Below, piece after piece: positions 3,181 to 53,960 of a DNA stretch of 64,000 nt. A program made the translations under genes and the position numbers. This DNA is from a virus. Each line of letters opens with the position of its first letter. Position 1 is the stretch's first letter. Location of the stretch: positions 16,023 through 80,022 of the IMG/VR virus record IMGVR_UViG_3300035179_000003; one strand, given 5' to 3'. The notes beneath the pieces were generated by a model. That model was given only the letters and a program-made list of their open reading frames with translations, had not been told where the DNA came from and ran no database searches.

Positions 3181-3264
3181 AGATAAACAACCTAAGCCCT
3201 CTAATCAACTCTTACGTTGAATCTCACGATTCAAGCTCCGGCCCTTGTGGCCGGAGTAGTTGAC
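3010..3264 (-). ncRNA. IscB omegaRNA scaffold; guide from the flank about 3265-3280 (GAACAGAACTTTCAGC)
   Basis: Located between the element end and the PLMP domain; 5' GTCAACTAC hairpin. Confidence 0.75.
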
Positions 3265-26554: not shown

Positions 26555-27697
26555 ATGATACAAAAGAAATCCTACAAATTCCGCATTTATCCCAATAATG
26601 CCCAAAAAGTCTTACTATCTAAAACTTTCGGATGTGTTCGATATATCTGGAATCAATTTGTAGAATCATTCAATAAAAAAGAAAATCCTAAATCTACTAC
26701 TATTTTTAGAAAAGAAATAGAATGGTTAAAAGAAGTATCTTCTGCGGCTATTCAACAAAAAGAAATTGATTTTAAAGAATTTAAAAATCAGTTTTTCTCT
26801 AAAAAGAGAAAGAAAAAAATAGGAAAGCCTTCTTTTAAAAAGAAATTTGAAAAACAATCTTATCGATTACCTAATCAGAAATTTATCTTAAAAAATAATA
26901 AGATCAGACTTGAAAAGATAGGATGGATAAAAATCATTCTTGATCGAGAAATTCCTTCTTGTAAATTTTTATCAGTTACTATTTCAAAAGATAAAGTTGG
27001 AGATTATTATGCCTCAATCTTAGTTGAAGAGAATGTCCAAGAACTACCTAAAACAAATAAAATAGTAGGAATAGATTTAGGAATACAAGATCTTATTACT
27101 ACTTCAGATGGATTACAGATAAAAATGTTTGATGAAAGTGAGAACCAAGCTAAAATTAAGCATTTATCCGGACATCTATCAAGGAAGAAAATAGGATCTT
27201 TGAGATTTAATAAGACAAAGATTAAGATAGCTAAAATCTATCGTAAAATAGCAAGAAAGAGAGAATGGTTACATCATAATATTTCTTCTTATCTTGTAAA
27301 AAATTATGATAAGATTATAATAGAAGATCTTAATATTTCCGGAATGATGAAAAACCATAATTTAGCAGGATCTATTCAAAAACAGGGATGGTTTACTTTA
27401 GGAAAACAGATTGATTATAAGTCAAGATGGTATGGTAGAAAATTAACTAAGATAAATCGATTTTATCCTTCTTCTAAATTGTGTTCATTATGTGGTAGAA
27501 TAAAAAAAGATCTAAAATTGTCAGAAAGATTTTATATTTGTAAATGTGGAAACAATATTAATAGAGACTTAAATGCATCTCTAAATATTCTATCTTCAGG
27601 AGTTACTGAAGATTATCGATCATTGATGGAAAGTAAGACTTTTAATAATCAGGAGACATTAAAAGCAATTCCAGATGAAATGATTAACTTTTTATAA
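26555..27697 (+). CDS. tnpB: TnpB RNA-guided endonuclease (solo, AT-rich)
   Basis: YKFRIYP/FGCVRYIWN N-terminus; RuvC GIDLG, IEDL, NRDLNA; Zn finger CSLC..CKC. Confidence 0.92.
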   Translation: MIQKKSYKFRIYPNNAQKVLLSKTFGCVRYIWNQFVESFNKKENPKSTTIFRKEIEWLKEVSSAAIQQKEIDFKEFKNQFFSKKRKKKIGKPSFKKKFEKQSYRLPNQKFILKNNKIRLEKIGWIKIILDREIPSCKFLSVTISKDKVGDYYASILVEENVQELPKTNKIVGIDLGIQDLITTSDGLQIKMFDESENQAKIKHLSGHLSRKKIGSLRFNKTKIKIAKIYRKIARKREWLHHNISSYLVKNYDKIIIEDLNISGMMKNHNLAGSIQKQGWFTLGKQIDYKSRWYGRKLTKINRFYPSSKLCSLCGRIKKDLKLSERFYICKCGNNINRDLNASLNILSSGVTEDYRSLMESKTFNNQETLKAIPDEMINFL

Positions 27698-27722: not shown

Positions 27723-29690
27723 CTAATCCGGTGGAGTAATAAAACTTTTTTCATCAATCAAATTTTGAACACTGAAATTCTGAGCATATTTTCTAGCGCC
27801 CATTCTATCAAATAGTTTTTCTTCCGTATCCTGAATGTATTCATTATTATATTGAGGAATGGAAACATCTTCCATAGACATGACAAATGTTTCGGCCACA
27901 GCCGGATCGCCATAAAGATCTTTATAATATTTACTACAATTTTTTAAAGTGGGTATTGATTCGTTGAATTTTCCGGCCCTAGTATTGGATATGATATTTT
28001 CAATTATATTTGCAACACTAAGGCCCTTTGCAAAAATATCTAATAAACCGGCGCTTGATAACATTCTTGTTAAATCACCGGCTTCTGATGTTTTATACGG
28101 CTGGTACGACTCGAGAACGTTTTTAACATAATTGTTATGATTAAAAAGTTGCCTGAATCGTGATTCCATCGTAGTAATTATGTTATATGCATTTTCTTTA
28201 TCGGACATTACGGTCGTAATTAAAGTAAAAGCATCCGCTATTAATTGGATATAAGGAGGCGTAGCCGAATATAATACATCAACAGTCCATACCCCAATCT
28301 TGGTATCCCAATCCGGTATATTATACAATTTATGAATAAATTCATCAAATTCCTGATTTGAGCTTTGTAAAACATCATCCGCATTTATCATATCGATAAG
28401 GCTTTGAGTAATGGTAGCGTGGAGCGTTTCATCGGCGATCCCGATGGTAGTATGACCAAGAATTATTTTTGACGCCATTTCAAAATTAGAATCTTTCACG
28501 GTAATTTTAGAAAACATATCCCTGGTAACTTCCAACAAGGTACTTGCCGAATCAAGCGGGCCGATTAATGTCGCACCAGCGGCATTTCCAGATCCTTTTA
28601 ATATAGAAACTATCTCATTAATCAAATTTTTTATTAAATTCCTGATGTTATATATTGTGTTACATAAATTATGATATTCAATATATTGTTCGTAAGCATT
28701 TTTCATATTTTCATATACATTACTGATTTCATCTCCCAGCAGCTTAATATCGAAGGAAAATTCCGATGCTATTCCACCAACCGCTTTTGCATAAGAACTT
28801 AAATTAACCGATGCGCTAGCGTTTGTTTCCAGTTCGGCTACATTCAATTTTTCTTTCCATTCGGTCTGTAAACCAGTGTTATAAGCATCATATTTATTTT
28901 TAATTATTTCTGTTTGAGTAATGCTTAATTTATCTGAAAATTGATTATTATACCAATGTTTAAGATCGGATGTTTTTGCTATATATATTTTATCAATCGC
29001 GGCTTTTTTCTCTTGAAAGACAAGATAACGTTCTTCTTCAACACGTTTAGTAACTTCTCCGATATCATCAATCAACGAATAGGGTTTTGTTATTTCATAA
29101 GCCTGCTGAATATTAAAATGAATTTTTTTATATGTCGATTCATTAAAAAAAGCATTATCGGCTCCAAGATCCCTTATCATATCGGCCAATAGATTGATCG
29201 CATTATTAAGATATGGAATAGCGTCTTTTATCTGTTTATAATATTCAGCATTTGATATTCTAAGAGCCCATTTCCCCAATATACCCATGACAATAGAAAT
29301 ACTTTTTTGAGCGCGGAATAAATAATAACGTTCATCATTGATAGCTTTTAAAGCGGCTTCATGTGGAATAGCAACCAGGGAAAATATTGCAGTTGGAAAC
29401 GATAATAATATTTTTAAAATCTGAGAAAGAATGGCTTCTACAAATGTTGACGCTATTCTTGATATTGGTCCAATCAATGATTCGGCGACCGACGCCGCAA
29501 GGGATCCTATAGCCGATACGGCTTCAGCGCCTATAATATCGAGAAGGCTTATAAAACCAAATTTTTTTTTAGCCCTTTCACCGGCATAGGTATTAACCCG
29601 TAATCTATTCTCTTCAATTTTTTTAAGAATGGTATAAATTTTATTATGAAGAGTTAAAAGAATTTCACATGCTTGTCTCGGAGGAGCCAT
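27723..29690 (-). CDS. Hypothetical alpha-helical virion protein (655 aa)
   Basis: Long ORF, RBS AAAGGA, first gene of a minus-strand operon. Confidence 0.65.
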   Translation of the reverse strand: MAPPRQACEILLTLHNKIYTILKKIEENRLRVNTYAGERAKKKFGFISLLDIIGAEAVSAIGSLAASVAESLIGPISRIASTFVEAILSQILKILLSFPTAIFSLVAIPHEAALKAINDERYYLFRAQKSISIVMGILGKWALRISNAEYYKQIKDAIPYLNNAINLLADMIRDLGADNAFFNESTYKKIHFNIQQAYEITKPYSLIDDIGEVTKRVEEERYLVFQEKKAAIDKIYIAKTSDLKHWYNNQFSDKLSITQTEIIKNKYDAYNTGLQTEWKEKLNVAELETNASASVNLSSYAKAVGGIASEFSFDIKLLGDEISNVYENMKNAYEQYIEYHNLCNTIYNIRNLIKNLINEIVSILKGSGNAAGATLIGPLDSASTLLEVTRDMFSKITVKDSNFEMASKIILGHTTIGIADETLHATITQSLIDMINADDVLQSSNQEFDEFIHKLYNIPDWDTKIGVWTVDVLYSATPPYIQLIADAFTLITTVMSDKENAYNIITTMESRFRQLFNHNNYVKNVLESYQPYKTSEAGDLTRMLSSAGLLDIFAKGLSVANIIENIISNTRAGKFNESIPTLKNCSKYYKDLYGDPAVAETFVMSMEDVSIPQYNNEYIQDTEEKLFDRMGARKYAQNFSVQNLIDEKSFITPPD

Positions 29691-29718
29691 TATTGTTCCT
29701 TTCTATTATATAAATATA

Positions 29719-29746
29719 GTTAAAAAATCATAAAATCTGGTATAAT
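29719..29746 (+). promoter_or_regulatory. Phage promoter GTTA-N18-TATAAT (also 48644-48671, 56192-56219, 60884-60911)
   Basis: Four copies with identical spacing ahead of plus-strand units. Confidence 0.65.
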
Positions 29747-41089: not shown

Positions 41090-41814
41090 TATCTATAACT
41101 CGCAATTTTATTCGACATGGCGCGCTTTCGTCGCGTTATCCACATATCATTTACGTTCAATTTTTTAGCTATGTCCTTATTACTCAATATCGGTTTGCCG
41201 GCATATCCGAATGTATGCTCGAAAATAACCTTGTCCTTATCTTCCAACTCCTGATATAAATAATCGGCAAGCGCCTTGTCCTTACTTTCGGCCTGCACCG
41301 CGTTTCCGTAAAAATCAAACGACGCCTTGGATGCAGTCGTTTCTCCGCTCAACTCGTTAATCATCCTCGCCGATTCTTTACGGTTCCACCCAAGCTCGTC
41401 TGATATCTGATCGATATTAGGTTCATACCCTAAACGATCGGTGAGATTTATCACTGCCGTGCGAAATGTAGCGCGTTTTAAATTACGCGCTTCTGGTATA
41501 TGGCCGGAAATCAAACTCTCGGAAGCAACGCGCTGCACTTTTTTCAAATTATTATATATATGCGTTATTGGTTGGGTACCCAGAGTCGGATCATAAGAAT
41601 TAAACGCTTTAATCATCTGGGATTGAGCATTAGCCCTTAATGTAGAAGGGGAAACGCCGACCGTGCGATAATGGCCGACAACACTTTCAATGACTGGTTT
41701 ATATCGCATTGATAATTCAGAAAACAGTACGGGATCTTTAGTTTTCTGCCATTGCATAATCATGTCTACTTCATTCATTTTTTGGTATCTACGCAAGGAT
41801 ACCCCGCCCCTCAT
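41089..41814 (-). CDS. Phage sigma-70-family factor
   Basis: Region 2 (AFNSYDP..G..P.THI), region 3 (LGYEP..DQISDELG), region 4 HTH (SNKDIAKKLNV). Confidence 0.75.
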   Translation of the reverse strand: MRGGVSLRRYQKMNEVDMIMQWQKTKDPVLFSELSMRYKPVIESVVGHYRTVGVSPSTLRANAQSQMIKAFNSYDPTLGTQPITHIYNNLKKVQRVASESLISGHIPEARNLKRATFRTAVINLTDRLGYEPNIDQISDELGWNRKESARMINELSGETTASKASFDFYGNAVQAESKDKALADYLYQELEDKDKVIFEHTFGYAGKPILSNKDIAKKLNVNDMWITRRKRAMSNKIASYR

Positions 41815-42077
41815 GGGCAGGAATGAATTGCGCCCTTATGTTAAATAAATTGAACTTGTATTAAAAATTTTTTCTATCCTCTTAATTCCAAAATCAAACT
41901 TGTTTAATCCATCTGTACAAATAACACTTTTTCCATACGAATGACACCCATTTACTGTATACTTTTTTCTTTTAACAAACACAAAATCACCGGGTTGTAT
42001 TGAATATCTTTGTCTACGAATTGAAAGCTTAAAACCTCACGATTCAAGCCCCGACCCTCGTGGTCGGAGTAGTTGAC
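41793..42077 (-). mobile_element. Internally deleted IscB mini-element (285 bp)
   Basis: GTCAACTACTCCGACC hairpin joined to a paralogue of the iscB 3' end and the terminal hairpin GCAATTC...GGGGTATCCTTGC. Confidence 0.85.
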
Positions 42078-44617
42078 TAGGCATTTCGTGTAAATCTCCT
42101 TGAATCAATAACCTTGTCTCTATATCTTTCTACGGCCTCACGTCGCTCTTTAATAAAATACGTTACCGGCATATTTTCATTAATAGTGCTGAAATCTCCA
42201 GGGCCTTTCATTAAGCCGCCATTCTCTTCTTTCAATTCACAAGAATCATCGCTATTCCAAAAATCATTTGTAATCCCATAATAACGATCATAAATGACGG
42301 TATCATCAAAATCTTTAACTCTGGAAATATATTTACCGCCAACAAGCGACGATACCCCAAGAATGCCATGATAAAAAGCATCGGCCGAACAAACGTCCCT
42401 ATAAATATAATCCAAACACCAGCCATAATCAGCCTTCATATTTTTTCTAAGATTAACGACAGCCTCATGAATACTGTCAAACATAAAATATTTTATTTTA
42501 TTGTCTTCGGTATATTCCCCTACCATAAGACTGTTTCTTCTATGACGAAGAACAAGTTTATAAAACCGCGCAATCCTGTTGACTTCATAAACCCGATCAA
42601 GAAACATGGACGTTCTTTTGTTGTTAGAAAAATCATCCTCACTTATAGAAAGTAAATCTTTAGCATAAATATATTCAGGATTTCCAGTTACCGACAAAAC
42701 ATCATACGCCGAATTTTTAGCTTTAGGATTTTTTATAACCATTTGTTTTGGATTTTGAACATAATACGGTTCTTTTTTATACAACATATTATTAATATCA
42801 ATCTCAGCCGTCTTTTTATCTGTCTCTTTCATAAACAGAGGGTTGCCATTTCCATCCATATCTGTCGGGTCATCGACAAAACGCGGATTAGACAACACTA
42901 TACTTGTCGCAGCCTCCCCGCCGGCAGTAGTCATAATAATAGAATGACGCACTTGCTGAACCATACCGATAATATCTTTAATCGGTTTTCCACTATCCGG
43001 TTGAGAACCGGCTATTATAAGAGAAGGGAATCCGCAAATTATAAAAGGATTGAACATCATATCAACCGACGCGACCCTGCCAAGATATTTTGAGTTTAAA
43101 AATTTAATTATAGCATGCCTTTTAATAGCACACTCTTCAAGATTTACCTTTTCACCTGTTCCAAATTTTAATCGCTGTTTTTCCTCATTCTTATTCACAA
43201 TGTCTTCTTCAAGTTTTTTCTTATCGGCTTCAGACATGCCTTTTAAATTTTTTTTAGATTTAAGTCTTTCGTTTAATTTATTAATTTCACTTTGTAATTT
43301 GTCCCGTGTTTTTTTTATCAACATTTTTTCTTCAAGAGTTTTTTCGGCATCGGAACAAGCGAGGGCGTGTTCGATATTATCAAATAAAATATTAACACCC
43401 TTATATTTTTCTTCCTCAGTAATTGGAGGCTTAGAACGATTCAGTTTATCCTGATTGGCAAATTTCGATTTAAATAATTCATTAGGGACCTGATAACTAA
43501 TAGTAAACGGATCACCTTCGGATCCTTCTGAAGACAATAAATCAGTTAATTTAAAATATCCACGAGTATAATCGATATCATAATCCTGCCTCCATTCCAA
43601 CCTATCATACATCGATGGAAACACGATATTGCAATTCGGAGGAGCGGTAAATTCGAGAGGCGGTAAAAGCATCGATTCGTTTATTATATATTTAGCGCCA
43701 AATTCCTTTGGATGTTTATCAACGATAAAACTTCTGACTGATCCTGACATTACAAAATCATTCGATTGTTCCCCCGATTCAACCGGTATTAACGAAGGCG
43801 TATTACATGAATAAACCCTGGTATTGAATAAGGCGCCAAGACGCATAATAGCAGCCTCTACACTAGTGAATACCGCGTTGCCTAATAAATAAGATCCAAG
43901 CGTTGCGTTTGAGTGATTACGATTCCAGAATCTTGTACCCGCCTGATTAACCGGTATTAAAAATTTCTTTTCTACCCGAAGGCGTTTATTTAAAAATGTA
44001 CAAATCGATGTTCCGCCAACCGCTTCAAGCCACAATCCACGAACGACCGCATCAAGAAAATAACCAATATCAGCGCCCTGAAATGCCTGATACGAATACT
44101 CGCCTTGTTTTTGCGGACTGACTTTATAATTTGCCGTTCCCGCAAGAAGATGCACCATATAAGAAATGGTAAACAATTTACTATCGACTTCTTTTATATC
44201 CCCCTTTACCTTACCATCAATTGCATAATTTTGGAAAAGACCCATTTTATAATATACGGTTGAATTACCAAGAGTATCTTCCCCGGTAAACGATAACGCT
44301 GCCGGAGTTTTCCGAATATCCATTCTAAAATCCCGGCATATCATTGTTAATGCCCGGGCTTCGGATGCTTCATCGATTTCATAAAAACTGGAAAACGAAC
44401 CGTCAAAAAATAGTTTCCACTCAGGCCTACTGCCGAACCATTCACGATAAAAAATCTGTATCGCAGTTTTAGGTTTTATATCATAAATATTTTCGCTCGA
44501 ATAAACATTAATACTTGCCTCGTTACCATTTGGCGTGCAGGTAACGGTAGCGCTTTTGAAAGGAATCTCAATACCCTCCATTAATAATTTAAAATCTAAT
44601 TTATAACCCTTGCGCAA
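42077..44617 (-). CDS. Putative baseplate hub-like tail protein (846 aa)
   Basis: Two genes downstream of the tape measure; N-terminal LFFDG..S..Y....L.CRD and MMFNPFI.CGFP hub-like motifs. Confidence 0.5.
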   Translation of the reverse strand: MRKGYKLDFKLLMEGIEIPFKSATVTCTPNGNEASINVYSSENIYDIKPKTAIQIFYREWFGSRPEWKLFFDGSFSSFYEIDEASEARALTMICRDFRMDIRKTPAALSFTGEDTLGNSTVYYKMGLFQNYAIDGKVKGDIKEVDSKLFTISYMVHLLAGTANYKVSPQKQGEYSYQAFQGADIGYFLDAVVRGLWLEAVGGTSICTFLNKRLRVEKKFLIPVNQAGTRFWNRNHSNATLGSYLLGNAVFTSVEAAIMRLGALFNTRVYSCNTPSLIPVESGEQSNDFVMSGSVRSFIVDKHPKEFGAKYIINESMLLPPLEFTAPPNCNIVFPSMYDRLEWRQDYDIDYTRGYFKLTDLLSSEGSEGDPFTISYQVPNELFKSKFANQDKLNRSKPPITEEEKYKGVNILFDNIEHALACSDAEKTLEEKMLIKKTRDKLQSEINKLNERLKSKKNLKGMSEADKKKLEEDIVNKNEEKQRLKFGTGEKVNLEECAIKRHAIIKFLNSKYLGRVASVDMMFNPFIICGFPSLIIAGSQPDSGKPIKDIIGMVQQVRHSIIMTTAGGEAATSIVLSNPRFVDDPTDMDGNGNPLFMKETDKKTAEIDINNMLYKKEPYYVQNPKQMVIKNPKAKNSAYDVLSVTGNPEYIYAKDLLSISEDDFSNNKRTSMFLDRVYEVNRIARFYKLVLRHRRNSLMVGEYTEDNKIKYFMFDSIHEAVVNLRKNMKADYGWCLDYIYRDVCSADAFYHGILGVSSLVGGKYISRVKDFDDTVIYDRYYGITNDFWNSDDSCELKEENGGLMKGPGDFSTINENMPVTYFIKERREAVERYRDKVIDSRRFTRNA

Positions 44618-45380
44618 GATTAAGTCCTATTTCGTTAAGGTTTAATCTTCCAAAATTTGACATGCCGTTAAATCGTTGTTCGTATTTTATTTTACCATTA
44701 CCATCGGAAATAATAATTAAATTATTTCTTACCCAATAAACATTTCTTACAAGAAGAGAGAATGAGAAATCTTTTTTCAAACTTGTTTCTGCGGTTTTAG
44801 TGGCGGAAATATTAATCATATATCCTTCAATAACTTTATTATCGCAGGAAAGATACATACGGGTTTTATTTTCAATACACTTCCTGCCGGCAAGTAATTT
44901 TTCATAAGCTACCATGAATTCCTGATAATACGGATATTCAATACTGTCGATAAATACTCCGTTAAAATTATAGACAGCCGGCCGCTCGCCAAAAAAGAAA
45001 ACATTCCAGCTATTATCAAAGTTCTGATGTATCTTAATAATTTCATCATGGGCTTCACGAACGGCCAAAAGGGAAAAATTATTAAAAACGCCATAATAAT
45101 TATTTACTCCATCAAGAGACGTACCATCTTCCGGAGTCGCAACATAAATATTACCTCCGGGCATATCGTCTTCTTTAATCATAGCGCTTTCGGTAGATTG
45201 GGCCAGCAACTCATTGATTGGAGAAGAAAAATCAGATAGAAAATCTCTTTCATTAATTTTCTCGTCTATTACATTATCAAAATTATCCGTAAATAATATA
45301 ATAGACGATAAATTTTGCGGTTGCTCCGTCATCCCGACTGAATATGGTCTTATTTTAAAATCATCCATTATAATACCCAC
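44601..45380 (-). CDS. Putative tail tube initiator-like protein
   Basis: Follows the tape measure; FFFGERP..Y.F.G..ID motif. Confidence 0.45.
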   Translation of the reverse strand: MGIIMDDFKIRPYSVGMTEQPQNLSSIILFTDNFDNVIDEKINERDFLSDFSSPINELLAQSTESAMIKEDDMPGGNIYVATPEDGTSLDGVNNYYGVFNNFSLLAVREAHDEIIKIHQNFDNSWNVFFFGERPAVYNFNGVFIDSIEYPYYQEFMVAYEKLLAGRKCIENKTRMYLSCDNKVIEGYMINISATKTAETSLKKDFSFSLLVRNVYWVRNNLIIISDGNGKIKYEQRFNGMSNFGRLNLNEIGLNLAQGL

Positions 45381-48300
45381 CTATTATTCCAATAATTAGT
45401 AATTGGAGGATTGACATTTACATATCGACCCTTGCCAGCGTCTCCTGTAACCGATGAAGCCGTTTGATCCATACGTTGTAATGCCTGCGCAGCTACATTA
45501 ATATCTTTAACTTTATCTAAATCAATAATTGATTTACCCAATGCATCTGTAAATATAGATTGGCTTCTTATATCTCCAGCACCCTTTCCCTGTAATATTG
45601 CAATATTTAAAGCCTGCGCCATTTGACCCCTACGCTCTTTTTCGATACTCTCTGTTCCGGCAGCAAATCCCGGATCACGAACAATGTTACTAACTAAACC
45701 TTCCCATGTTTTGGCTTGTGTAAAATATCCTTTGGTTGCACCACTTAATTGGGAAAGCATCCAGGCATTTTCTTTTGCCCATTGCGGGCCGACAATATCT
45801 CTGTTTTGTGAAAATGCACCTCTACCGGTTAAAAGATCAACATAATCACGCCTGAAAGCATCAGTCATTTTGATACCACGACGATCGCCAGCAGCAATAA
45901 AAGCTTGTCCTCTGGCCTCAAGCGCTACAGTAGTGTCTTTCGCAGCTATTTGGTTTCTGGCAGATTCAATGCCGGTAAAAATACTCTCTTTACCTTTAAA
46001 TAATTGCATAAATCGTAATTCATCAGATTTTAATACGCCCGTTTTTCCCGATATTGCCGATAATTCAGCATAACGATTTGCGAGGACGTCCATTCCTACG
46101 CCGGTTTCAGGATTAACGGAAATACCAAAACTTCTTATTTTTTGAACCAACTCATCGTTCCACCCAACATTGGCACCGGCATGACTATAGGGTAAATGCT
46201 CTCTCCATCCTGCAGTTGCCCTGGTCGGTAATTTTCCATAAAACATATTACGCGCGGACGCCTTTAAAACTTCTTTTTCCGTCAATCCAGCCTGCATAGC
46301 ATTTACTAAATAATTAGGCATATCATCGTATTTTTTAAATGCCTTTTCAGCTTCCAAAACTCTTCTTTGTAATTGTGTAATACTATCAGAGTACTTACCG
46401 GACAAGAGACCATCCCGGCGGGCGTTCTCCATTATTCTTTGTTCTTTTTTAAGATTACCAGGAGAAAAATCGAGTTGAACATTATACTCTTTCATCGTAT
46501 TATCTAATTCAAGCTTAGCCTTTTGTCTTTCAGCGCCGGTTTGATTAAAAATCGATATTGAAAATTCAGAAGGGTTCCCTTTCAACGCAGCATAAGCCGT
46601 AGATTTTTCTCCGCCTAACGCGCGAATAACATCCTTGTTAAATGGTAATTCTCCAAGAGTTTGATTAAATGAAGCTGCGCTGGTTGCTTGTAATACGGTT
46701 TCAAGATCTTCGCGTGACATTTTACTTGTATTAAGATATTTTATTCTCGAACCAGTACGCCGAGCGGAAGGAGCTACATTACCCTCAGCAATAACCTTTA
46801 TACCTCTAGCCAAATCTCCATACGTCTCAGCGCCCCAGGCTCTTGCCAATCCAGTTTTTATATCGCCAATGTCTCCACGGCCAAATACAGATGCGCTATA
46901 TGGATCGACAATACCAAGAACCTTACCTCCCCATAACAAACTCTTATCAATAAAGGTACCGGCGCCATAAGATTCAGCGGTCCATTGGGCAAGTTTATTT
47001 GCATTACTCATCATTTTAACGCCCATGTCTTCTCCGGCATCAACAAAACCCTGATAAGTTTTTTGTATCATCCCGGCCAAACCATATGGTTGTATCGGAC
47101 GCCGTTTTAAACCAATCATAGCGTCTTCAACATTAGCGGTAGCGTTCATTATCTCATATCCCTTCGGACCAATTAAATAATCGGATACTAATCGACGCTC
47201 CCGCTGATCATTCGTGCCTAGGCCGGCAAATACCCATGCTTTAGCCTCTTCGGTTCCCGGTTTATGTGAACCCCATGCCTTAAATAAATCCATCATTGCT
47301 GCATCACGTTGCCATCCTTTAATTCTTGGATCATTCCAGAAGTCTTCTTTGCGTTTTTCAAATAAAACACGATTCGGACCCATGGCATAACCAAGACGAC
47401 CGGCGCCGCTAACCATTTCATAAGCACCAACCCCGCCGGCAGTTAATTTATTTAATTTATCAAAATTAATCGTTCCATCCGGATTCATCGCGTATGCAGT
47501 CATTTTCGTTCCCATTCCTGACGACATCATATTCATCTGGAACCGAGCTATCGCGCCGCCGGCGGCAGCTACGCCACCCGCACGATCAACAACATATTGC
47601 CCTCCCATGCTCGCCTTTGCCATAAGCGCCGCCTGCGCAGCACCCTGTTGATACATATTAGCGCCAACAGCAGCCGAATACGGAGTTCCCTGAACAGCCT
47701 GGGCCCCCGCCGCGCCTATCATCATCATATTTTCGGCGCCCATGCCGGTAATTCCGCCAAACGCCTTTACCTGAAGAACTTGATTACGCACATCCTTTAA
47801 CGATCTGAATCCGGTATTCTGCAGATTTTTAATAACCGACATACCACCTTCGATCGTAGTCTGCAAAAGCTTAACAACGTCTTCGGTCGTTTTTTTAAGA
47901 TCTTCGAAGTTTTGTTGATATTGTTTCATCGTACCAGCGTCGGCGCCCCAACCGCGCGCGTTAAGCATATTGTTCGATATCGCTATTTTATGAATACGCA
48001 TTTGCTGTTCGCGGTTAAAAAATTGACCGGTTCCATTAAGCGGCCCTTCACCTGTGCCGGGATCCATCCCTGTCACCAATCTTCCGGCAAGCATTGAAGA
48101 TTCATTGTATGATAATGGTGAATTAAACCCAAGACGTGAACGATACTGATCAAGATCAAGCGACATACTTTGCATTAATTTCTGACGTTCTATAGTTCTT
48201 TCAATACCCTTTTCAATAAAATGAGCAGGAATGGCGCCAATAGCTAATGATGCCGCCATGGCAGGAACAAAGGGCACTTTTAATGCTAGTAACATTAAAT

Positions 48301-48631
48301 CTATTGCCGTGGAAGGCGCAAAATTAGCAAAACCTGTTGCTATTCCAGCAGAGCGTCCTATCCTTGCCATTTCAGCCTGCCGTTGATAATATCTGGTAGA
48401 TTGATCGTTATAAACACCATATTGATATTCGCCATGCGCCATTGACCGTTGCTGTATTGGGGTTAAATCTTGCGGAGTAATGGTATTTTGGGCATATTGA
48501 GATATCATCTGATAACGCAGCATATCCTGGTATCTGATGCGATTGTCAAAACTGGCAAAAGGATCTATATTCCCAGGACGCCCACTGTTTATTGGACCAT
48601 AAGCATTGGGTGGAAGTTGTTCATCAGCCAT
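45368..48631 (-). CDS. Probable tape measure protein (1087 aa)
   Basis: Ala/Gly/Met-rich helical ORF lying between a frameshifted chaperone and tail-tip genes. Confidence 0.65.
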   Translation of the reverse strand: MADEQLPPNAYGPINSGRPGNIDPFASFDNRIRYQDMLRYQMISQYAQNTITPQDLTPIQQRSMAHGEYQYGVYNDQSTRYYQRQAEMARIGRSAGIATGFANFAPSTAIDLMLLALKVPFVPAMAASLAIGAIPAHFIEKGIERTIERQKLMQSMSLDLDQYRSRLGFNSPLSYNESSMLAGRLVTGMDPGTGEGPLNGTGQFFNREQQMRIHKIAISNNMLNARGWGADAGTMKQYQQNFEDLKKTTEDVVKLLQTTIEGGMSVIKNLQNTGFRSLKDVRNQVLQVKAFGGITGMGAENMMMIGAAGAQAVQGTPYSAAVGANMYQQGAAQAALMAKASMGGQYVVDRAGGVAAAGGAIARFQMNMMSSGMGTKMTAYAMNPDGTINFDKLNKLTAGGVGAYEMVSGAGRLGYAMGPNRVLFEKRKEDFWNDPRIKGWQRDAAMMDLFKAWGSHKPGTEEAKAWVFAGLGTNDQRERRLVSDYLIGPKGYEIMNATANVEDAMIGLKRRPIQPYGLAGMIQKTYQGFVDAGEDMGVKMMSNANKLAQWTAESYGAGTFIDKSLLWGGKVLGIVDPYSASVFGRGDIGDIKTGLARAWGAETYGDLARGIKVIAEGNVAPSARRTGSRIKYLNTSKMSREDLETVLQATSAASFNQTLGELPFNKDVIRALGGEKSTAYAALKGNPSEFSISIFNQTGAERQKAKLELDNTMKEYNVQLDFSPGNLKKEQRIMENARRDGLLSGKYSDSITQLQRRVLEAEKAFKKYDDMPNYLVNAMQAGLTEKEVLKASARNMFYGKLPTRATAGWREHLPYSHAGANVGWNDELVQKIRSFGISVNPETGVGMDVLANRYAELSAISGKTGVLKSDELRFMQLFKGKESIFTGIESARNQIAAKDTTVALEARGQAFIAAGDRRGIKMTDAFRRDYVDLLTGRGAFSQNRDIVGPQWAKENAWMLSQLSGATKGYFTQAKTWEGLVSNIVRDPGFAAGTESIEKERRGQMAQALNIAILQGKGAGDIRSQSIFTDALGKSIIDLDKVKDINVAAQALQRMDQTASSVTGDAGKGRYVNVNPPITNYWNNRWVL

Positions 48632-48693
48632 GATATAAATATAGTTATTTTATGAAAAAATCGGGTATAATTATTATAAGAAAGGAGTTTCTT

Positions 48694-48906
48694 ATGATAG
48701 ATACGAAATTATTAAATGAAGTTTATTCGGAGTTGTTAAATTACAAACGGCATGATATAATAGCAATTCTTAATGCCGCGGAATCCGGCAAGCTGATCGG
48801 AAAAAAGGTTATTGTTCATATAAACAATACTCCCCAACAAATAATCATCGTGTTAGTTGCATTTTTAAAAGAACACGAAGTTAAGGTTGAGATATGCCAA
48901 GAATGA
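48694..48906 (+). CDS. Hypothetical protein
   Basis: RBS AGGAG downstream of the promoter motif. Confidence 0.6.
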   Translation: MIDTKLLNEVYSELLNYKRHDIIAILNAAESGKLIGKKVIVHINNTPQQIIIVLVAFLKEHEVKVEICQE

Positions 48907-49097
48907 AATGCCTTGACAGTACCTGGAAATTTGTCCATGGAAAAAGTATAAAAGACCCTGAACTGACAAAAAATAAGTTCTACAGGCTTACAGAAAGAAA
49001 CGTTCAGGTAATGACAAAAGAATCCATGGTGAGCCTCGTCGGTGATTCTGGCGAGGAAATTACAAGACCAAAACATTTATTTAAAATCTTTAAATGA
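48894..49097 (+). CDS. Hypothetical protein
   Basis: 67 aa, coupled. Confidence 0.5.
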   Translation: MPRMKCLDSTWKFVHGKSIKDPELTKNKFYRLTERNVQVMTKESMVSLVGDSGEEITRPKHLFKIFK

Positions 49098-49645
49098 GGA
49101 GAATAGTTATGAAAACCATAATCATAATACTTATTACCATAATAATCACACTTGGCAATAAGTTAACAAAACAAGAAGACGAGTATTTAAAAGATTGGGA
49201 AAATAAAAAAAATACTCCGTCAATAATAATCGATTCTATTATTCCCGATACAACGACTTATGGATGGGATAAGGTTTATAATTATGTCCTAATAAGCGAC
49301 AGTATCCAGAGGATTATAGATTCCCTTGATAAAAAAACCATTATATTATATGAGTTAATGTACAAAAGTTCCAAGTACTTTCATACACTCAACGATCTGA
49401 ATTTATCAGATCAGAAAAGATATTTCGACTATTTATTAAAATACAAAAAAACAGATACGTTAAGAGTGTATATCGCCCTTGATATACTCATACGAATTTT
49501 AGAATATGAGTATAATATCTCTATCATTATCATGGAAAATCAAACCGGAAATGCAAAGGCCCGGTCGTTTCTCCATGTTAAAGCAAGGGAAAATGATTTA
49601 ATTATAATGAAAAAATATAAAAACTACCTAAGGAGGGAAAAGTGA
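49094..49645 (+). CDS. Hypothetical exported/membrane-anchored protein
   Basis: MKTIIIILITIIITLG hydrophobic N-terminus. Confidence 0.6.
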   Translation: MRRIVMKTIIIILITIIITLGNKLTKQEDEYLKDWENKKNTPSIIIDSIIPDTTTYGWDKVYNYVLISDSIQRIIDSLDKKTIILYELMYKSSKYFHTLNDLNLSDQKRYFDYLLKYKKTDTLRVYIALDILIRILEYEYNISIIIMENQTGNAKARSFLHVKARENDLIIMKKYKNYLRREK

Positions 49646-49935
49646 AAATATTAATAATTATATTAATCCTTCTATTTGGATGCCAGCCGGTTCTCTACCA
49701 AAGAGAACCGATCGAGATAATCGATTGCGCGTTCAAATACAATCAAAGAGTAGCGAAACTCCCGGTAGTTGTCGGAAAGTTTTATGTGACAAGGACCGAA
49801 TATTATATTACTTTGGTTGACTCTACCTCATACACAATCATGGTGGATGAGGAAGAATTTAATAAAATAAAAAAGGGAGAATGGTATGTTAAAGGAAAGT
49901 ATACAACGAAAGATTTGGAGCAGAGTAGAAAATAA
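49642..49935 (+). CDS. Putative lipoprotein
   Basis: MKILIIILILLFGC lipobox. Confidence 0.6.
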   Translation: MKILIIILILLFGCQPVLYQREPIEIIDCAFKYNQRVAKLPVVVGKFYVTRTEYYITLVDSTSYTIMVDEEEFNKIKKGEWYVKGKYTTKDLEQSRK

Positions 49936-50094
49936 AATCCTTACCCGGTGTTATCGGAAAGGAGTTAATGGATTCATATTCGTTGATAAACTAATGTTGA
50001 ATGTAGACGGAATTGGATATCTCTCTGGACACAAACCATTACTGGTTTATATTCCAAAACATATCGTAAAATTAATTTCTGCGTCTTAAAGGAT

Positions 50095-50132
50095 GCCGGT
50101 AAGGGAAAGAAAGGCAAAGACACCTTACCGGC
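50095..50132. terminator. Hairpin between convergent units, directly after the stand-alone guide
   Basis: GCCGGTAAGG/CCTTACCGGC perfect 10-bp stem. Confidence 0.55.
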
Positions 50133-50322
50133 TCCGCAGAAAACACCGTAGTTGACATCCTCTGCCGGGGATTTATCCCCGCAGATTCCTGGGACTAATT
50201 ATGCAAAGCACAAGTAGCACCAAGTTGGTTCACGCTTCGACAGAGTGTGCGTCTGGGAGCCGAAGCCCTCAGACGTCTTACCCCTCCTCCACGCGCAGTC
50301 ACCGAGTGTCCCTCGGCCATGT
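50132..50322 (-). ncRNA. Stand-alone TnpB omegaRNA: scaffold 50322-50152 plus guide CTACGGTGTTTTCTGCGGAG
   Basis: 171 bp identical to 51379-51549, ends in TCAA, different 3' flank, upstream TATATT element. Confidence 0.8.
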
Positions 50323-50362
50323 ATAATAATATAATTCAAAGAAGGGTAGGTAGCGATAAATA

Positions 50363-51345
50363 TTATCCACCACCACCGGGTTTAATGTAAAAACTCACAT
50401 TCTTGATTTTTTCAAACAATTTCGCCGCTTTCTTCACATAATCCACATCATCATATGCTTCTTCAGGAAATATCAAACCCCGGAATTTACGCACAATCTC
50501 CCCCCTTTTCTCGGGACTCGCCACCGACAATAACGGTGTAATATATTGAATCGCGCGCTGTCTGTTAAATTCTATAATCGCTATTTTTTCGTTTAAAGAC
50601 CCTGGAATGAATTTAATTCCACTAAACAAAAAATAAGCTTTTGCAGCGCCGGAGGGAGTCCCTAGGATTTTGGGATAATACCTTTCATGTTGATAATATT
50701 ATGTATTTTGGTATCGAATTTAAACTTCTCATCCAGAATAAAATCGATTACCGCCGGGGACATCTTTCTAATCTTCATAAGACGGTATTTTATCTTCTTT
50801 TTAAGTTCGATCCTTAATTTTTCCGCATTTTCCAAATCGCCATTAGCCAGAAGTTCATTACAACGCATTACAGCCGTTTTAAGCGTGTTTAATTGGGCGG
50901 TGCCATCTTCTTCACATAACTCTTTTTTATTCATTCCTCGATAGGATAATGTAACGAAGAGGATGGATTTATAAGATTCAGCCATTTGATTAGTGATCCG
51001 ATCATCATTTTCCTTAACATATTCAAAGACCATTTCGTCTATCAGGTTGATTTCCTCAGCATTTAAAGTGGAAATTGTGAATGTGTATTTGTTTAAATTC
51101 GGGGAAATTATATCAGTTTCCGCATAGCTATTAAAAATCATTTTTTCAGCCAACTCGAGATCTTCTGTTGATATGCTGGGTAAATCAGGTGGTTTCTCTT
51201 TTACAATCTCCGGAGTTGATAGAGTTTTTTGAATAGCCTCTTCAACCATCTTGTTTGCATCCCTCTTTTGAAAATCCAATACTTTCTCGGCATTTTCCTT
51301 AAAAGGATCTTTAAAATTTTGTTTCTTATCAAACACCCCTGTCAT
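50363..51345 (-). CDS. Tail assembly chaperone with programmed -1 frameshift (ORFs 50662-51345 and 50363-50629)
   Basis: Slippery C CCA AAA (50674-50668) two codons before the stop; the -1 frame is open (ILGTPSGAAKAYFLFSG...) into the second ORF; upstream of the tape measure. Confidence 0.75.
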
Positions 51346-51378
51346 ATAAAATTATCCTTTCTTTAAATGGTTTATTAA

Positions 51379-52714
51379 TTGACATCCTCTGCCGGGGATT
51401 TATCCCCGCAGATTCCTGGGACTAATTATGCAAAGCACAAGTAGCACCAAGTTGGTTCACGCTTCGACAGAGTGTGCGTCTGGGAGCCGAAGCCCTCAGA
51501 CGTCTTACCCCTCCTCCACGCGCAGTCACCGAGTGTCCCTCGGCCATGTCTATGTTTTTTGCTGCGTTCTCGTCTCTGTCGTGATGTGCGCTGCATTTGG
51601 GGCAGTCCCATTCGCGGACATCCAATGGCAACAATTCGACGATATGGCCGCAAGTCGAACACAATTTACTGGACGGAAAAAACCTGTCAACAAGCTTTTC
51701 TTCCTTCCCGTACCGTTCACATTTATACTCAACCATCTGCCGAAAAGCCCCCATGCCGACATCGAGAATTACACGAGCGAAACAATGATTGCTCGACATG
51801 CCCCGCACGTTCAAATCCTCAATTCCGATCACGTCAAACTGTCGCACGAGATCGGTGGTAAACTTGTGAAGAGTGTTGGCACGACACTCTCCAACATGCT
51901 CATGTAGGCGAGCAATTTTCACGCGTTGCCTCTGCCATCGGCCACTACCATTTTTGCGCCGGGCAAGAACGCGCTGCAATCGGGCCAGCTTGGAGAGATT
52001 ACCACCAAGGTAGCGCGGGTTGGCAATGCGTTCACCGTTCGACAGGGTAGCAAGACGGCTTACCCCCAAGTCAACACCAACTGTCTTCCCGGTCTTCGGC
52101 AACTTCTCGACTTCTTCATCGAGGCAAAGAGTGACAAAGTACCTCCCGGACGGCTTCTTGATTATCGTAACCGTCGTGGGGGAGCTCTTGAACTCTCTAC
52201 TCCAACGAATATTAAGACGACCGAGGCCGGAAAGAACAAGGTTTTTATTTACGTCATCCCACTTAAAAGCGCTGATAGTATACTCGGCAGTCTGTTTATT
52301 TCTTTTCTTTTTAAACGAGGGGTAACGCCCACGCTTGGCCCAGAAATTGAGGAAGGCAGTTTGAAGATGGCGAAGCGCTTGCTGAATGGCGACGCTGGAA
52401 ACTTCGGACAGCCACTTTGTTTCTTCTTGTCTTTTAAGAACAGTAAGCATTTTGGATGTGTCGTAATAATTGATTCGCTTCTGTTCCGTTCGCCATGCTT
52501 CAGATCGCAAGCGAAGTGCCCAATTGTAGATGTAACGACAACAACCGAAGACGCGGGAAAGCTCTTGTGCTTGGGCGTCAGTGGGATAGAAGCGAAATCG
52601 GTATCTTGTTTTCACACTAATATTATACATTGTGTAAGTCGAAAAGTCAATACTTGTTTCCAGAAAGGGGCGGCAATTCATCCACAACAGTTAAAACCGT
52701 GTGGTTTTCTTGCT
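51379..52714 (-). mobile_element. IS605/IS1341-type TnpB-only element, GC-richer than its surroundings
   Basis: Left-end hairpin CCACACGGTTTTAACTGTTGTGG; right-end hairpin GGGGATAAATCCCC..TCAA; no tnpA. Confidence 0.88.
51422..52615 (-). CDS. tnpB: TnpB nuclease (probable leaderless GTG start 52615)
   Basis: GVDLG, IEDL and DRDENA RuvC residues intact; CSTC..CPKC; TTGACT-17-TATAAT promoter just upstream of the GTG. Confidence 0.93.
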   Translation of the reverse strand: MKTRYRFRFYPTDAQAQELSRVFGCCRYIYNWALRLRSEAWRTEQKRINYYDTSKMLTVLKRQEETKWLSEVSSVAIQQALRHLQTAFLNFWAKRGRYPSFKKKRNKQTAEYTISAFKWDDVNKNLVLSGLGRLNIRWSREFKSSPTTVTIIKKPSGRYFVTLCLDEEVEKLPKTGKTVGVDLGVSRLATLSNGERIANPRYLGGNLSKLARLQRVLARRKNGSGRWQRQRVKIARLHEHVGECRANTLHKFTTDLVRQFDVIGIEDLNVRGMSSNHCFARVILDVGMGAFRQMVEYKCERYGKEEKLVDRFFPSSKLCSTCGHIVELLPLDVREWDCPKCSAHHDRDENAAKNIDMAEGHSVTARGGGVRRLRASAPRRTLCRSVNQLGATCALHN

Positions 52715-52719
52715 GTATA

Positions 52720-53960
52720 ATTTATAACTACAAACCATGAAAAAGACAATAAAAAAATACAAACTCAAAACACGCTACGTGAGTTCGGCAAAGCTTTTAA
52801 TTAACAAAAAGAGAAATTTTTGGTTTCCTATATAGGAATTTTAAAACCACCCCCCCCTAATTACAAAAAAAATATTGAAAAAAACAAGAAATTTTTTTTT
52901 CTCCTCCCTCGAAAAGTAAAATTGTATATAGGAGGGTTATAATTATACTTTTATTTATATATATATATTATATATATTATATATATATTTTTATTATATA
53001 TATATAGATATAGATCTAACATAGCGCGAGCAAAAATTGAGCCAATCTGTAATTACTTGTTTTTATTTATTTTACAACAAAGGTTTAAAGTAATGGTTTA
53101 AGATTGGTTTTTAATATGCACATTATTGATAAATTTAATAAACTATTTTATGTGTTTCGCACTTGTTACAAAAAATCTGTCCAGCTTGACAAAATAGTGT
53201 ATGCATTTGTTACAACATTTTTTCATTTTGCAACAAAATGGGAAAAAAATTGACAAATAGGAGGCCTTTTTTGATAGTAAAAAGGGCAATTCTGTCCAGC
53301 TTGACAAAATAGTGTATGCATTTGTTACAGTGAAAAATGAAAAAGTGACTGCAACAAAATGCATACTTTTTTTTTAAAATGGACAGATTTTTTTTGACAC
53401 TTTTTATACTTAATCGTTTAAGGGAAAAATTTGCCTAGTAAAATGGCCATTCCCGGAAATCAATGTAAAAAATATATTTTAAGTTATTGATTTTTAAGGA
53501 CATAAATTAAGAAATGAAATTAAAAAAAAGTTGTCAAGTAATTCTATATCTTATTTAAAATCAATTTATTAGTATAGATATTTTGATTTTTTATAATCTA
53601 TTTTTTTAAAAAAAAAATCAATGACTTACAGATTTGGTTTTTTTCCGTTTTGTCAAAATTGACAACATGCTGTATGCATTCTGTTGCAGCCCGCTAAGCC
53701 ACACCAGTACAGGTGGGGTTCTGAATTTGCCACTATTATTCTGTAAAGATTTTTAAAAAAAAACCATTTTTGGTCATTAATGTGATATTTATCACATTAA
53801 TTCTTGTGTTGTAAAGTGAAAATGAAATTTTGATAAAAATGATTTTTATATTTCTATTATTATTAAAGACTTATGATTTATAATTAAAGTAATACTATAG
53901 AGGAGAATGGCTTTAATCGCTTAAATAATTTTTTTTAAAAATATTATATTGTTTTTTAAA
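52720..53960. other. Long AT-rich intergenic region, candidate replication origin
   Basis: (AT)n tract about 52955-53010, 39-bp direct repeats, gene orientation switch. Confidence 0.5.
53176..53329 (+). repeat. 39-bp exact direct repeat (53176-53214 and 53291-53329)
   Basis: TCTGTCCAGCTTGACAAAATAGTGTATGCATTTGTTACA occurs twice. Confidence 0.9.

What the first reader, a model, noticed from the sequence alone, without database searches (positions are those of the whole stretch)
50095..50360. Stand-alone, re-guided TnpB omegaRNA set up as its own transcription unit
Seen: 50152-50322 is identical over 171 bp to the 3' end of the TnpB element (51379-51549). It starts at the scaffold's first hairpin (ATGGCCGAGGGACACTCGGT) and ends at TCAA, with no left end and no upstream tnpB coding sequence. 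A TATATT element lies 5-6 nt upstream. The guide position reads CTACGGTGTTTTCTGCGG instead of TTAATAAACCATTTAAAG and is followed by a 10-bp hairpin. Established: the TnpB guide is the sequence 3' of the right end, and this TnpB keeps its D-E-D RuvC residues. Inference: the phage has retargeted a transposon nuclease into a minimal programmable weapon against the host or a competing element. I found no full target in this window.
Basis: partly seen in the sequence, partly recalled or inferred. Interest (0 to 1): 0.85.

Follow-up and report, generated by a model that had tools for sequence, protein, structure and literature searches.

The report
Solo TnpB guide-RNA copy in phage
A large uncultured phage carries, 1.2 kb from its TnpB transposon, an exact extra copy of only the transposon's guide-RNA gene; it looks like a stripped-down insertion whose "new guide" is simply the neighbouring phage DNA, a kind of stand-alone guide already known from bacteria and not a purpose-built weapon.

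Summary
Window 50152-50322 is an exact 171-bp copy of 51379-51549, the omegaRNA and right end of a tnpA-less IS605-family TnpB element. An independent assembly (L004) has the same junctions.

The copy holds every covarying omegaRNA helix and the full right end. It lacks the left-end hairpin and tnpB.

- The 3' edge is exactly the transposon end (GTCAA).
- The 5' edge abuts TTATA. I infer this to be the family's TAM from multi-copy relatives (TYATC/TCATA).

So the copy most likely arrived by the element's own insertion chemistry. Its 18-nt guide would then be native flank, lying between the upstream operon's stop codon and its terminator hairpin.

I found no second target in the 80-kb record. 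IMG/VR gave only chance-level hits.

Most likely it is served in trans by TnpB and recognises the uninterrupted allele, which would give homing or retention among co-infecting strains. A 664-nt mismatch-free tract around it, within flanks 1.7-3.5% diverged, fits this.

Stand-alone omegaRNAs are published (PMC10691335, PMC10055086). This scan has also noted several solo omegaRNAs in other phages.

Verdict: a new member of a known kind, of moderate interest.

The parts
50152..50322 (-). Stand-alone copy of the omegaRNA scaffold plus transposon right end (171 nt). It includes hairpin 1, the long-range helix, the GAAT-hairpin-GGATGTCAA right-end module and a 41-codon remnant of the TnpB C-terminal tail.
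   Evidence: Exact identity to 51379-51549. The family covariance model R1 matches over all 147 positions, 114.7 bits, E 6e-32. Identical in L004.
50134..50151 (-). Guide position of the solo copy, CTACGGTGTTTTCTGCGG. Inferred to be native phage flank of the insertion.
   Evidence: Read directly. Unique in the window and in the whole record at up to 3 mismatches.
50322..50326 (-). TTATA, matching the inferred family TAM, directly abutting the solo copy. The junction is ambiguous within the shared bases AC, so the insert may start at 50321 (CATGG).
   Evidence: Sequence. TAM inferred from multi-copy relatives as T[C/T]ATC, and as TCATA in L090 and L091. TTATA occurs at 4.1e-3 per position in the window.
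50095..50132 (.). GC-rich hairpin (10-bp stem) between convergent genes, starting 1 nt after the guide. Probably the native terminator of the 227-aa/88-aa operon; it would end the solo omegaRNA transcript.
   Evidence: Fold. A terminator-like site on the minus strand at 50129-50113 with a T-rich tail.
50362..50391 (-). Promoter-like pair TTTACA-18-GATAAT, about 40 nt upstream of the solo copy and overlapping the end of the 88-aa gene.
   Evidence: Consensus scan, 10 of 12 matches. The region gives 7 such sites against 1.8 expected from shuffles, so this is weak evidence.
50363..51345 (-). Two phage genes (227 aa at 50662-51345; 88 aa at 50363-50629) bracketed by the two 171-bp repeats and co-oriented with tnpB and the solo copy.
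   Evidence: ORFs. The same gene pair occurs in 67%-identical relatives L006-L009 that have neither tnpB nor omegaRNA.
51379..52722 (-). Full tnpA-less IS605-family (IS1341-type) element, with about 50% GC in a genome of about 33% GC. The left end has the hairpin CCACACGG..CTGTTGTGG and an internal TTGACT-17-TATAAT promoter. The right end stops at GATGTCAA. The left boundary is either 52722 (favoured) or 52715.
   Evidence: Composition. Boundaries from alignment with L090 (85% TnpB identity) and with L091-L093. Family geometry from cyanobacterial multi-copy sets.
51422..52630 (-). tnpB (402 aa from the ATG; relatives often start at the GTG five codons later). RuvC D-E-D and the zinc finger are intact.
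   Evidence: Pfam, alignment with close homologues, PDB match to ISDra2 TnpB.
51361..51549 (-). OmegaRNA of the full element (51379-51549) and its guide (51361-51378, TTAATAAACCATTTAAAG). The guide overlaps the 5'UTR and ribosome-binding site of the 227-aa gene.
52723..52727 (-). TTATA, the inferred TAM of the full element. A second TTATA lies at 52720-52716, so the pentamer is the same under either boundary model.

Best explanation
The 171-bp segment is a stand-alone omegaRNA: a stripped-down derivative of the neighbouring tnpA-less IS605-family TnpB element that keeps only the guide-RNA scaffold and the transposon right end.

Origin (inferred): it reached this site by the element's own single-strand transposition chemistry, which inserts 3' of the TAM. 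Either a truncated piece was cut at an internal TAGA/C site, or a full second copy inserted and later lost its left end and tnpB. Its 'new' guide is therefore the 18 nt of phage DNA that flank the insertion, as for every OMEGA insertion.

Expression (inferred): it lies between the stop codon of the 227-aa/88-aa operon and that operon's terminator hairpin. It would be transcribed by read-through, or from a weak nearby promoter, and the transcript would end just past the guide.

Function (inferred, not shown): TnpB made 1.2 kb upstream loads it in trans. The complex then recognises TTATA + CTACGGTGTTTTCTGC, the uninterrupted version of this same site. The occupied site is protected because GTCAA replaces the TAM. 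The effect would be retention or homing: empty alleles in co-infecting sibling phages are cut and repaired from the occupied copy.
For: - Exact repeat, present in two independent assemblies.
- The 3' edge coincides to the base with the right end defined by comparison with L090-L093 and 11 cyanobacterial relatives, all ending GGATGTCAA.
- The 5' edge abuts TTATA. Five-copy and three-copy relatives define the family TAM as T[C/T]ATC followed by a 17-nt spacer and then the hairpin. L090 and L091 have TCATA and the window's full element has TTATA. TTATA occurs at 0.4% per position.
- The donor site inside tnpB reads ATAGA|CATGG, which resembles L090's TTAGA|C.
- The copy contains every covarying helix. 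Fifteen of 23 consensus pairs show compensatory changes, the first being hairpin 1, five nt from the copy's start. The covariance model matches end to end.
- An intact TnpB lies in cis.
- The guide has no other match in the record.
- L004 against the window shows 0 mismatches in 664 nt around the solo copy, while neighbouring segments differ by 1.7-3.5%. P(max gap) is 5e-6 under uniform spacing. The full element differs by only 0.07-0.2%. This is what recent gene conversion or homing with co-conversion of flanks would give.
- The literature reports mobilised stand-alone omegaRNAs that act in trans (PMC10691335) and PATEs that encode omegaRNAs (PMC10055086).
Against: - No empty-site relative could be recovered. 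The only relatives without the insert are about 67% identical and their intergenic DNA cannot be aligned, so 'native flank' is inferred and not observed.
- The left boundary of the full element is ambiguous (52722 or 52715), and the TAM is inferred by homology, not tested.
- TTATA next to the junction has a 1-3% chance expectation in this AT-rich DNA. That is supportive but not decisive.
- The copy has no left-end hairpin, so how it was mobilised or trimmed is unexplained. No TnpA is encoded in the 80-kb record, which is only 44% complete.
- There are no expression data. The mismatch-free tract rests on two genomes and could instead reflect local conservation or ordinary recombination.
- No other TnpB-bearing viral record examined has a solo copy.
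Confidence: 0.58

Rival explanations
1. Inert leftover. The copy is a decaying fragment of a second insertion, or of an aberrant transposition or repair event. It is either not made into RNA or not used by TnpB. Its only consequence is a pair of 171-bp direct repeats that can recombine and delete the two genes between them.
For: It has no left end and no nuclease gene of its own. Promoter evidence is weak. No target exists other than its own site. Another internally deleted IS200/IS605-type derivative in the same phage (about 41.8-42.1 kb) is already 74-89% diverged, so such remnants do accumulate here. The 100% identity may only mean the copy is young.
Against: The cut leaves the whole covarying scaffold intact and removes almost everything else, ending 5 nt before hairpin 1. 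A random deletion endpoint would fall that close only about 1% of the time. The copy lies inside a transcribed, co-oriented operon and upstream of a terminator. It shows zero change in two strains that differ by 1.7-3.5% in adjacent DNA.
Confidence: 0.22
2. The phage has domesticated a second, re-aimed guide under its own promoter, so that TnpB attacks the host chromosome or a competing mobile element. This would be a minimal two-guide programmable weapon.
For: A complete scaffold with a different guide sits next to an intact nuclease. Promoter-like and terminator-like signals bracket it. The guide-plus-hairpin flank is richer in GC (about 52%) than the phage average. Phage-borne TnpB loci with guide arrays have been proposed elsewhere (Thermus Lalka phages).
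Against: No mechanism is known that would install a chosen guide other than transposition. The copy carries transposition hallmarks: the exact right end and an abutting TAM. No TAM-flanked target was found in the record or in IMG/VR. The 12 exact 16-mer hits are about what chance predicts by my estimate and lie in unrelated contigs; the closest to a TAM is TTCTA in L111. The hairpin is placed where the operon's own terminator is expected.
Confidence: 0.08
3. Assembly or chimera artefact that duplicated the transposon end.
For: Exact repeats of about 170 bp can be mis-joined by short-read assemblers. L005 breaks at the repeat.
Against: Two assemblies that differ by 65 SNPs and a 1.4-kb indel share both copies and all four junctions. 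The unique flanks on both sides are continuous phage genes.
Confidence: 0.01

Closest known systems
Stand-alone (trans-acting) omegaRNAs of OMEGA systems (Altae-Tran et al. 2021, as summarised in PMC10691335)
   Same: An omegaRNA scaffold with its own guide but no adjacent effector or transposase, in the same genome as a compatible effector. Thought to add target sites without duplicating the whole system.
   Different: The published cases are bacterial and described as 'evidently mobilised'. This one is in a phage, lies 1.2 kb from its TnpB, and lacks a recognisable left end. Trans use is not shown here.
PATE-like mini IS200/IS605 elements that encode omegaRNAs (Meers et al. 2023, PMC10055086)
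   Same: A protein-less derivative of an IS605-family element that keeps the guide RNA and depends on TnpB from another copy.
   Different: PATEs keep both the left-end and right-end hairpins and can still be moved by TnpA. Here only the right end is present.
TnpB-driven transposon homing and retention (ISDra2, ISGst; PMC10055086) and 'non-restorative homing' into co-infecting phages (review PMC13565253)
   Same: TAM plus flank-derived guide. The occupied site is immune because the TAM is displaced. Cutting of the vacant allele followed by recombinational copying is predicted.
   Different: No TnpA is in sight, so no excision creates vacant sites. The vacant alleles would have to be sibling phage genomes. 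Only indirect population evidence exists (a mismatch-free tract).
Free-standing homing endonucleases of T-even phages (Seg, Mob), which co-convert flanking markers
   Same: Proposed outcome: preferential inheritance of a small cassette and its flanks in mixed infections.
   Different: Recognition would be by RNA, not protein. The nuclease gene and the cassette are physically separate.
Type V CRISPR origins from TnpB (TranC and similar; PDB 9jfo was among the hits)
   Same: One TnpB-family nuclease with more than one guide-encoding locus.
   Different: The whole omegaRNA is duplicated. It is not split into tracrRNA and crRNA, and there is no repeat-spacer array and no adaptation genes.

Membership tests
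IS200/IS605-family TnpB element (tnpB-only, IS1341 type): the full copy | TnpB with HTH, OrfB_IS605 and zinc-finger/TNB domains and the RuvC D-E-D triad | tested here: met
   Pfam E 1e-27, 1e-22 and 1e-18. E 8e-70 to ISDra2 TnpB. Motifs conserved in the alignment.
IS200/IS605-family TnpB element (tnpB-only, IS1341 type): the full copy | Structured omegaRNA overlapping the 3' end of tnpB and ending at the right end | tested here: met
   Consensus structure from 17 relatives; 15 of 23 pairs have compensatory changes. No Rfam family matched.
IS200/IS605-family TnpB element (tnpB-only, IS1341 type): the full copy | Subterminal left-end and right-end hairpins; right end GAAT-hairpin-...TCAA as in IS608; TAM 5' of the left end | tested here: met
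   Right end conserved in all relatives. Left-end hairpin present. TAM inferred as TTATA from TYATC/TCATA in relatives; it was not tested biochemically.
IS200/IS605-family TnpB element (tnpB-only, IS1341 type): the full copy | A Y1 transposase (TnpA) available for mobilisation | tested here: not met
   No PF01797 match in the 80-kb record, which is 44% complete. TnpA would have to come from the host or from the unsequenced part.
Stand-alone omegaRNA (OMEGA) | Complete scaffold with no adjacent effector ORF | tested here: met
   Covariance model matched over positions 1-147 of 147. Only a 41-codon tail remnant of tnpB is present.
Stand-alone omegaRNA (OMEGA) | A compatible effector encoded in the same genome | tested here: met
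   The scaffold is identical to that of the intact tnpB at 51422-52630.
Stand-alone omegaRNA (OMEGA) | Distinct guide derived from the DNA flanking the right end | tested here: met
   Different 18-mers follow GTCAA at the two copies. That the flank is native is inferred.
Stand-alone omegaRNA (OMEGA) | Expressed and used in trans by the effector | not testable with these tools
   Only promoter-like and terminator-like signals and operon context are available.
PATE (palindrome-associated transposable element) | Both left-end and right-end hairpins flanking a protein-less interior | tested here: not met
   There is no left-end hairpin. The 5' end goes straight from TTATA into omegaRNA hairpin 1.
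CRISPR array or mini-array | Short direct repeats interspaced by spacers, with a crRNA separate from the scaffold | tested here: not met
   The only repeats are two 171-bp whole-scaffold copies 1227 bp apart, with two genes between them.

The most novel reading that the evidence does not exclude
A phage-borne TnpB runs a two-guide gene drive. The second guide gene has lost its left end and can no longer transpose, yet it still spreads between co-infecting phage strains, because TnpB cuts the uninterrupted allele and repair copies the cassette together with about 0.5 kb of flank. That would be an RNA-guided counterpart of the free-standing homing endonucleases of T-even phages. It would also be a natural intermediate between a transposon-bound single guide and a nuclease served by several fixed guide genes.
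Probability: 0.22. Interest if true: 0.7.

Novelty: new member of a known kind. Interest (0 to 1): 0.42.

Why it matters
If the solo guide is used, this phage shows in nature how a TnpB nuclease gains a second target without duplicating itself. It would also show how an OMEGA element can persist in a virus with no transposase, by homing between co-infecting genomes. That bears on two questions: how multi-guide (CRISPR-like) systems began, and what the many phage-borne TnpB genes are for. Taken alone it is an ordinary by-product of IS605-family activity. It fits a published category, and this scan has already noted several similar cases in other phages.

Tried and rejected
- Rfam found no family in 49.5-53.5 kb.
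- INPHARED blastn of 48.6-53.0 kb gave no match.
- An exact right-end 19-mer gave no hit in IMG/VR.
The contigs of the closest TnpB homologues (P0002-P0011, 76-87% identical) and the six contigs carrying the identical 227-aa protein could therefore not be fetched. They would have settled the TAM, the left boundary and perhaps the empty site.
- The single metagenome scan gave two strain variants and four 67% relatives. The relatives lack tnpB and omegaRNA, but their intergenic DNA is too diverged to reconstruct the empty site.
- Guide search: unique in the window and the record. The 12 IMG/VR 16-mer hits lack the TAM and are unrelated. L111, with a TTCTA flank, was examined and rejected as a coding-region chance match in an unrelated phage.
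I dropped this for three reasons. ATTATAC is the reverse complement of the common -10 box GTATAAT and recurs at unrelated promoters. Multi-copy relatives place the TAM 17-19 nt from the left-end hairpin as TYATC. And TTATA satisfies both boundary models.
- An 'internal deletion that keeps the left-end tip' was considered. The solo flank reads TTATTATAC against AATTATAC, which needs two substitutions and an indel next to 171 perfect bases, so this is unlikely.
- An RNA-mediated (retro-copy) origin was rejected because the copy stops at the DNA right end and does not carry the donor's guide.
- Five other TnpB-bearing viral records hold no solo copies.
- The genome search 'relatives' is not available for virus records.
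- The predicted 12-bp pairing between the right-end tail and the guide's 3' half relies on G-U pairs and has no DNA-level repeat, so I treated it as chance.

Full report
**What is there**

The window is part of an 80-kb IMG/VR virus record, about 44% complete, with about 33% GC.

On the minus strand lies a GC-rich insert (about 50% GC) that is a tnpA-less IS605-family element:
- a left-end hairpin and an internal TTGACT-17-TATAAT promoter;
- tnpB at 51422-52630, with HTH, OrfB_IS605 and TNB domains, E 8e-70 to ISDra2 TnpB, and the D-E-D triad and zinc finger conserved;
- an omegaRNA that overlaps the last 42 codons and ends at GATGTCAA (51379).

Exactly 1227 bp downstream on the same strand, 50152-50322 repeats the last 171 bp of the element without a single change. 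These are the only two copies in the record. Two phage genes (227 aa and 88 aa) lie between them.

The repeat is real. Metagenome contig L004 differs from the window at 65 positions and carries an extra 1.4-kb helicase gene, yet it has both copies and all four junctions. L005 breaks at the repeat.

**What the copy contains**

I aligned the omegaRNA regions of 17 relatives, with TnpB 45-85% identical to the window's. The consensus structure has 23 pairs, 15 of them with compensatory changes:
- a first hairpin in which three pairs covary in 6-8 sequences;
- a long-range helix;
- an internal hairpin;
- the right-end hairpin, preceded by GAAT and followed by GGATGTCAA, the same layout as IS608.

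No covarying helix lies upstream of hairpin 1. The solo copy begins 5 nt before that hairpin. A covariance model built from the family matches the copy over all 147 positions (114.7 bits) and matches nothing else in the window except the parent.

So the copy is a complete guide-RNA scaffold plus a complete right end. It has no left-end hairpin and no nuclease gene. Rfam has no model for it.

**How it got there**

The 3' edge of the identity is the transposon right end to the base, as defined by where similarity stops in L090-L093 and in the multi-copy cyanobacterial relatives. Illegitimate recombination or a retro-copy would not stop there. A retro-copy would also carry the donor's guide, and this copy does not.

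For the 5' side I first had to fix the TAM. Five copies in one Heteroscytonema genome, and several other multi-copy sets, show identity starting right after TCATC or TTATC, followed by a 17-nt spacer and then the left-end hairpin. At the corresponding place L090 and L091 have TCATA, and the window's element has TTATA.

The window actually reads TTATA-AA-TTATA-C-AGC. The boundary could therefore be 52722 (same geometry as the relatives) or 52715, but the TAM pentamer is TTATA under both. Its apparent recurrence (ATTATAC at both junctions) arises partly because ATTATAC is the reverse complement of the common -10 box GTATAAT, which also occurs at unrelated promoters.

The solo copy is preceded by ...TTA-TTATA with the insert starting C-ATGG, so TTATA abuts it. 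The junction is ambiguous within two shared bases. TTATA occurs at 0.4% of positions. Allowing for the ambiguity, the chance expectation is 1-3%.

The donor site inside tnpB reads ATAGA|CATGG, which resembles L090's TTAGA|C.

Together with the exact right end, this points to the element's own insertion chemistry. Either a truncated piece was cut at a pseudo-site, or a full second copy was later trimmed. I cannot tell which, and the absence of a left-end hairpin remains unexplained. No Y1 transposase is encoded in the 80 kb held.

**What the guide is**

If the copy is an insertion, the 18 nt after GTCAA are simply the phage DNA that was there before.

The context fits. The stop codon of the 88-aa gene is at 50363 and the insert follows 36 nt later. 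One base after the 18-mer comes a 10-bp GC stem between convergent genes, which the scan also flags as terminator-like on the minus strand. This is where the operon's terminator should be.

The guide has no other match in the window or the record at up to 3 mismatches. A 16-mer search of IMG/VR gave 12 hits, about the number I estimate from the size of the collection. None has the TTATA/TCATA motif, and none lies in related phages; the closest, L111, has TTCTA, which is within chance for 12 hits.

I could not recover an empty-site relative. The only insert-free relatives (L006-L009) are about 67% identical, and their intergenic DNA cannot be aligned. 'Native flank' is therefore inferred, not observed.

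**How it probably works**

Shown:
- a complete scaffold;
- an intact nuclease 1.2 kb away on the same strand;
- co-orientation with an operon;
- a terminator just past the guide.

Inferred: the RNA is made by read-through, or from the weak TTTACA-18-GATAAT site, and is trimmed and loaded by TnpB in trans. Trans use is published for stand-alone omegaRNAs (PMC10691335) and for PATE-encoded omegaRNAs (PMC10055086).

The complex would recognise TTATA followed by the guide match, which is the uninterrupted allele of this same site. The occupied site is protected because GTCAA replaces the TAM.

With no transposase to vacate the site, the only vacant alleles are sibling phages in mixed infections. 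The expected effect is homing with co-conversion, as discussed for 'non-restorative homing' in PMC13565253.

One population observation fits. Between L004 and the window there is not one difference in 664 nt around the solo copy, of which 461 nt are native flank on the guide side. The adjacent segments differ by 1.7% and 3.5%. Under uniform spacing of the differences, P = 5e-6. The full element differs by only 0.07-0.2% from L004 and L005. Two genomes are too few to exclude plain conservation or ordinary recombination.

**Comparison and verdict**

The object fits the published category of stand-alone omegaRNA. It fails the PATE definition because it has no left end, and it is not a CRISPR-like array.

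The weapon reading is not excluded, but nothing specific supports it, and it needs a guide-installing mechanism that is not known.

This scan has also flagged solo TnpB guide RNAs in several other phages, with similar conclusions. Those are unchecked AI notes and I did not use them as evidence, but they show the pattern recurs.

In the papers I could search I found no description of phage-borne stand-alone omegaRNAs, although the search could not handle the Greek-letter spelling.

I rate this a new member of a known kind, of moderate interest. The most attractive open possibility is RNA-guided homing between phage strains.

Noticed in passing
window 26555-27697 (+): A second TnpB gene (380 aa) with AT-rich, phage-like composition. 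It is 36% identical to the GC-rich TnpB, keeps the DLG, IEDL and RD motifs, and has an omegaRNA-like tail (hairpin, then GATGGAAAGTAAGAC). It has no GC-rich transposon ends and looks long resident. The family covariance model does not detect its RNA.
   Followed up: partly
window 1840-3180 (-) and about 41779-42083 (-): An IscB-type gene (RRXRR + HNH, 446 aa) in an element starting GTCAAC, plus a roughly 300-nt internally deleted derivative of it (45 nt at 89% and 201 nt at 74% identity). The phage therefore holds a second pair of the form 'full OMEGA element plus stripped copy', and this pair is older.
   Followed up: partly
L004:3232-4680 (corresponds to window about 48632): Strain variant L004 carries a 482-aa SNF2-family helicase gene between the promoter and the start of the 1087-aa gene. 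The window lacks it entirely. This is a clean 1.44-kb presence/absence polymorphism.
   Followed up: partly
window 49691-50354, 48635-49690 and 44098-48631: Divergence between two strains is strongly mosaic: 0% over 664 nt around the solo copy, 3.5% in the next 1 kb, and 0.22% in the 1087-aa gene.
   Followed up: yes
window 48631-48680 (-) and 29690-29746 (-): Two intergenic regions share a roughly 45-nt element (TTATTATACC.GATTTT...TAACTATATTTATAT). On the opposite strand it reads as an extended -10 box (TGGTATAAT or GGTATAAT). It is probably a divergent phage promoter module.
   Followed up: no
L006:4736-4776 and window 3196-3236: A 67% relative that lacks the TnpB element carries the start of an IscB-type element (GTCAAC + hairpin), 88% identical to the window's. 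That element family is therefore shared across the phage group.
   Followed up: no
window 50134-50175 (-): In the RNA fold of the solo copy, the right-end tail (GCAGAGGAUGUC) pairs with the 3' half of the guide (GGUGUUUUCUGC) through G-U pairs. If this forms, it would occlude the guide. The parent copy has no such pairing. Probably chance.
   Followed up: no
window 52613-52660 (-): The left end carries TTGACT-17-TATAAT, conserved as TTGACA-17-TATGCT in L090. Its -10 box overlaps the annotated ATG, so tnpB probably starts at the GTG five codons later on a very short leader.
   Followed up: no
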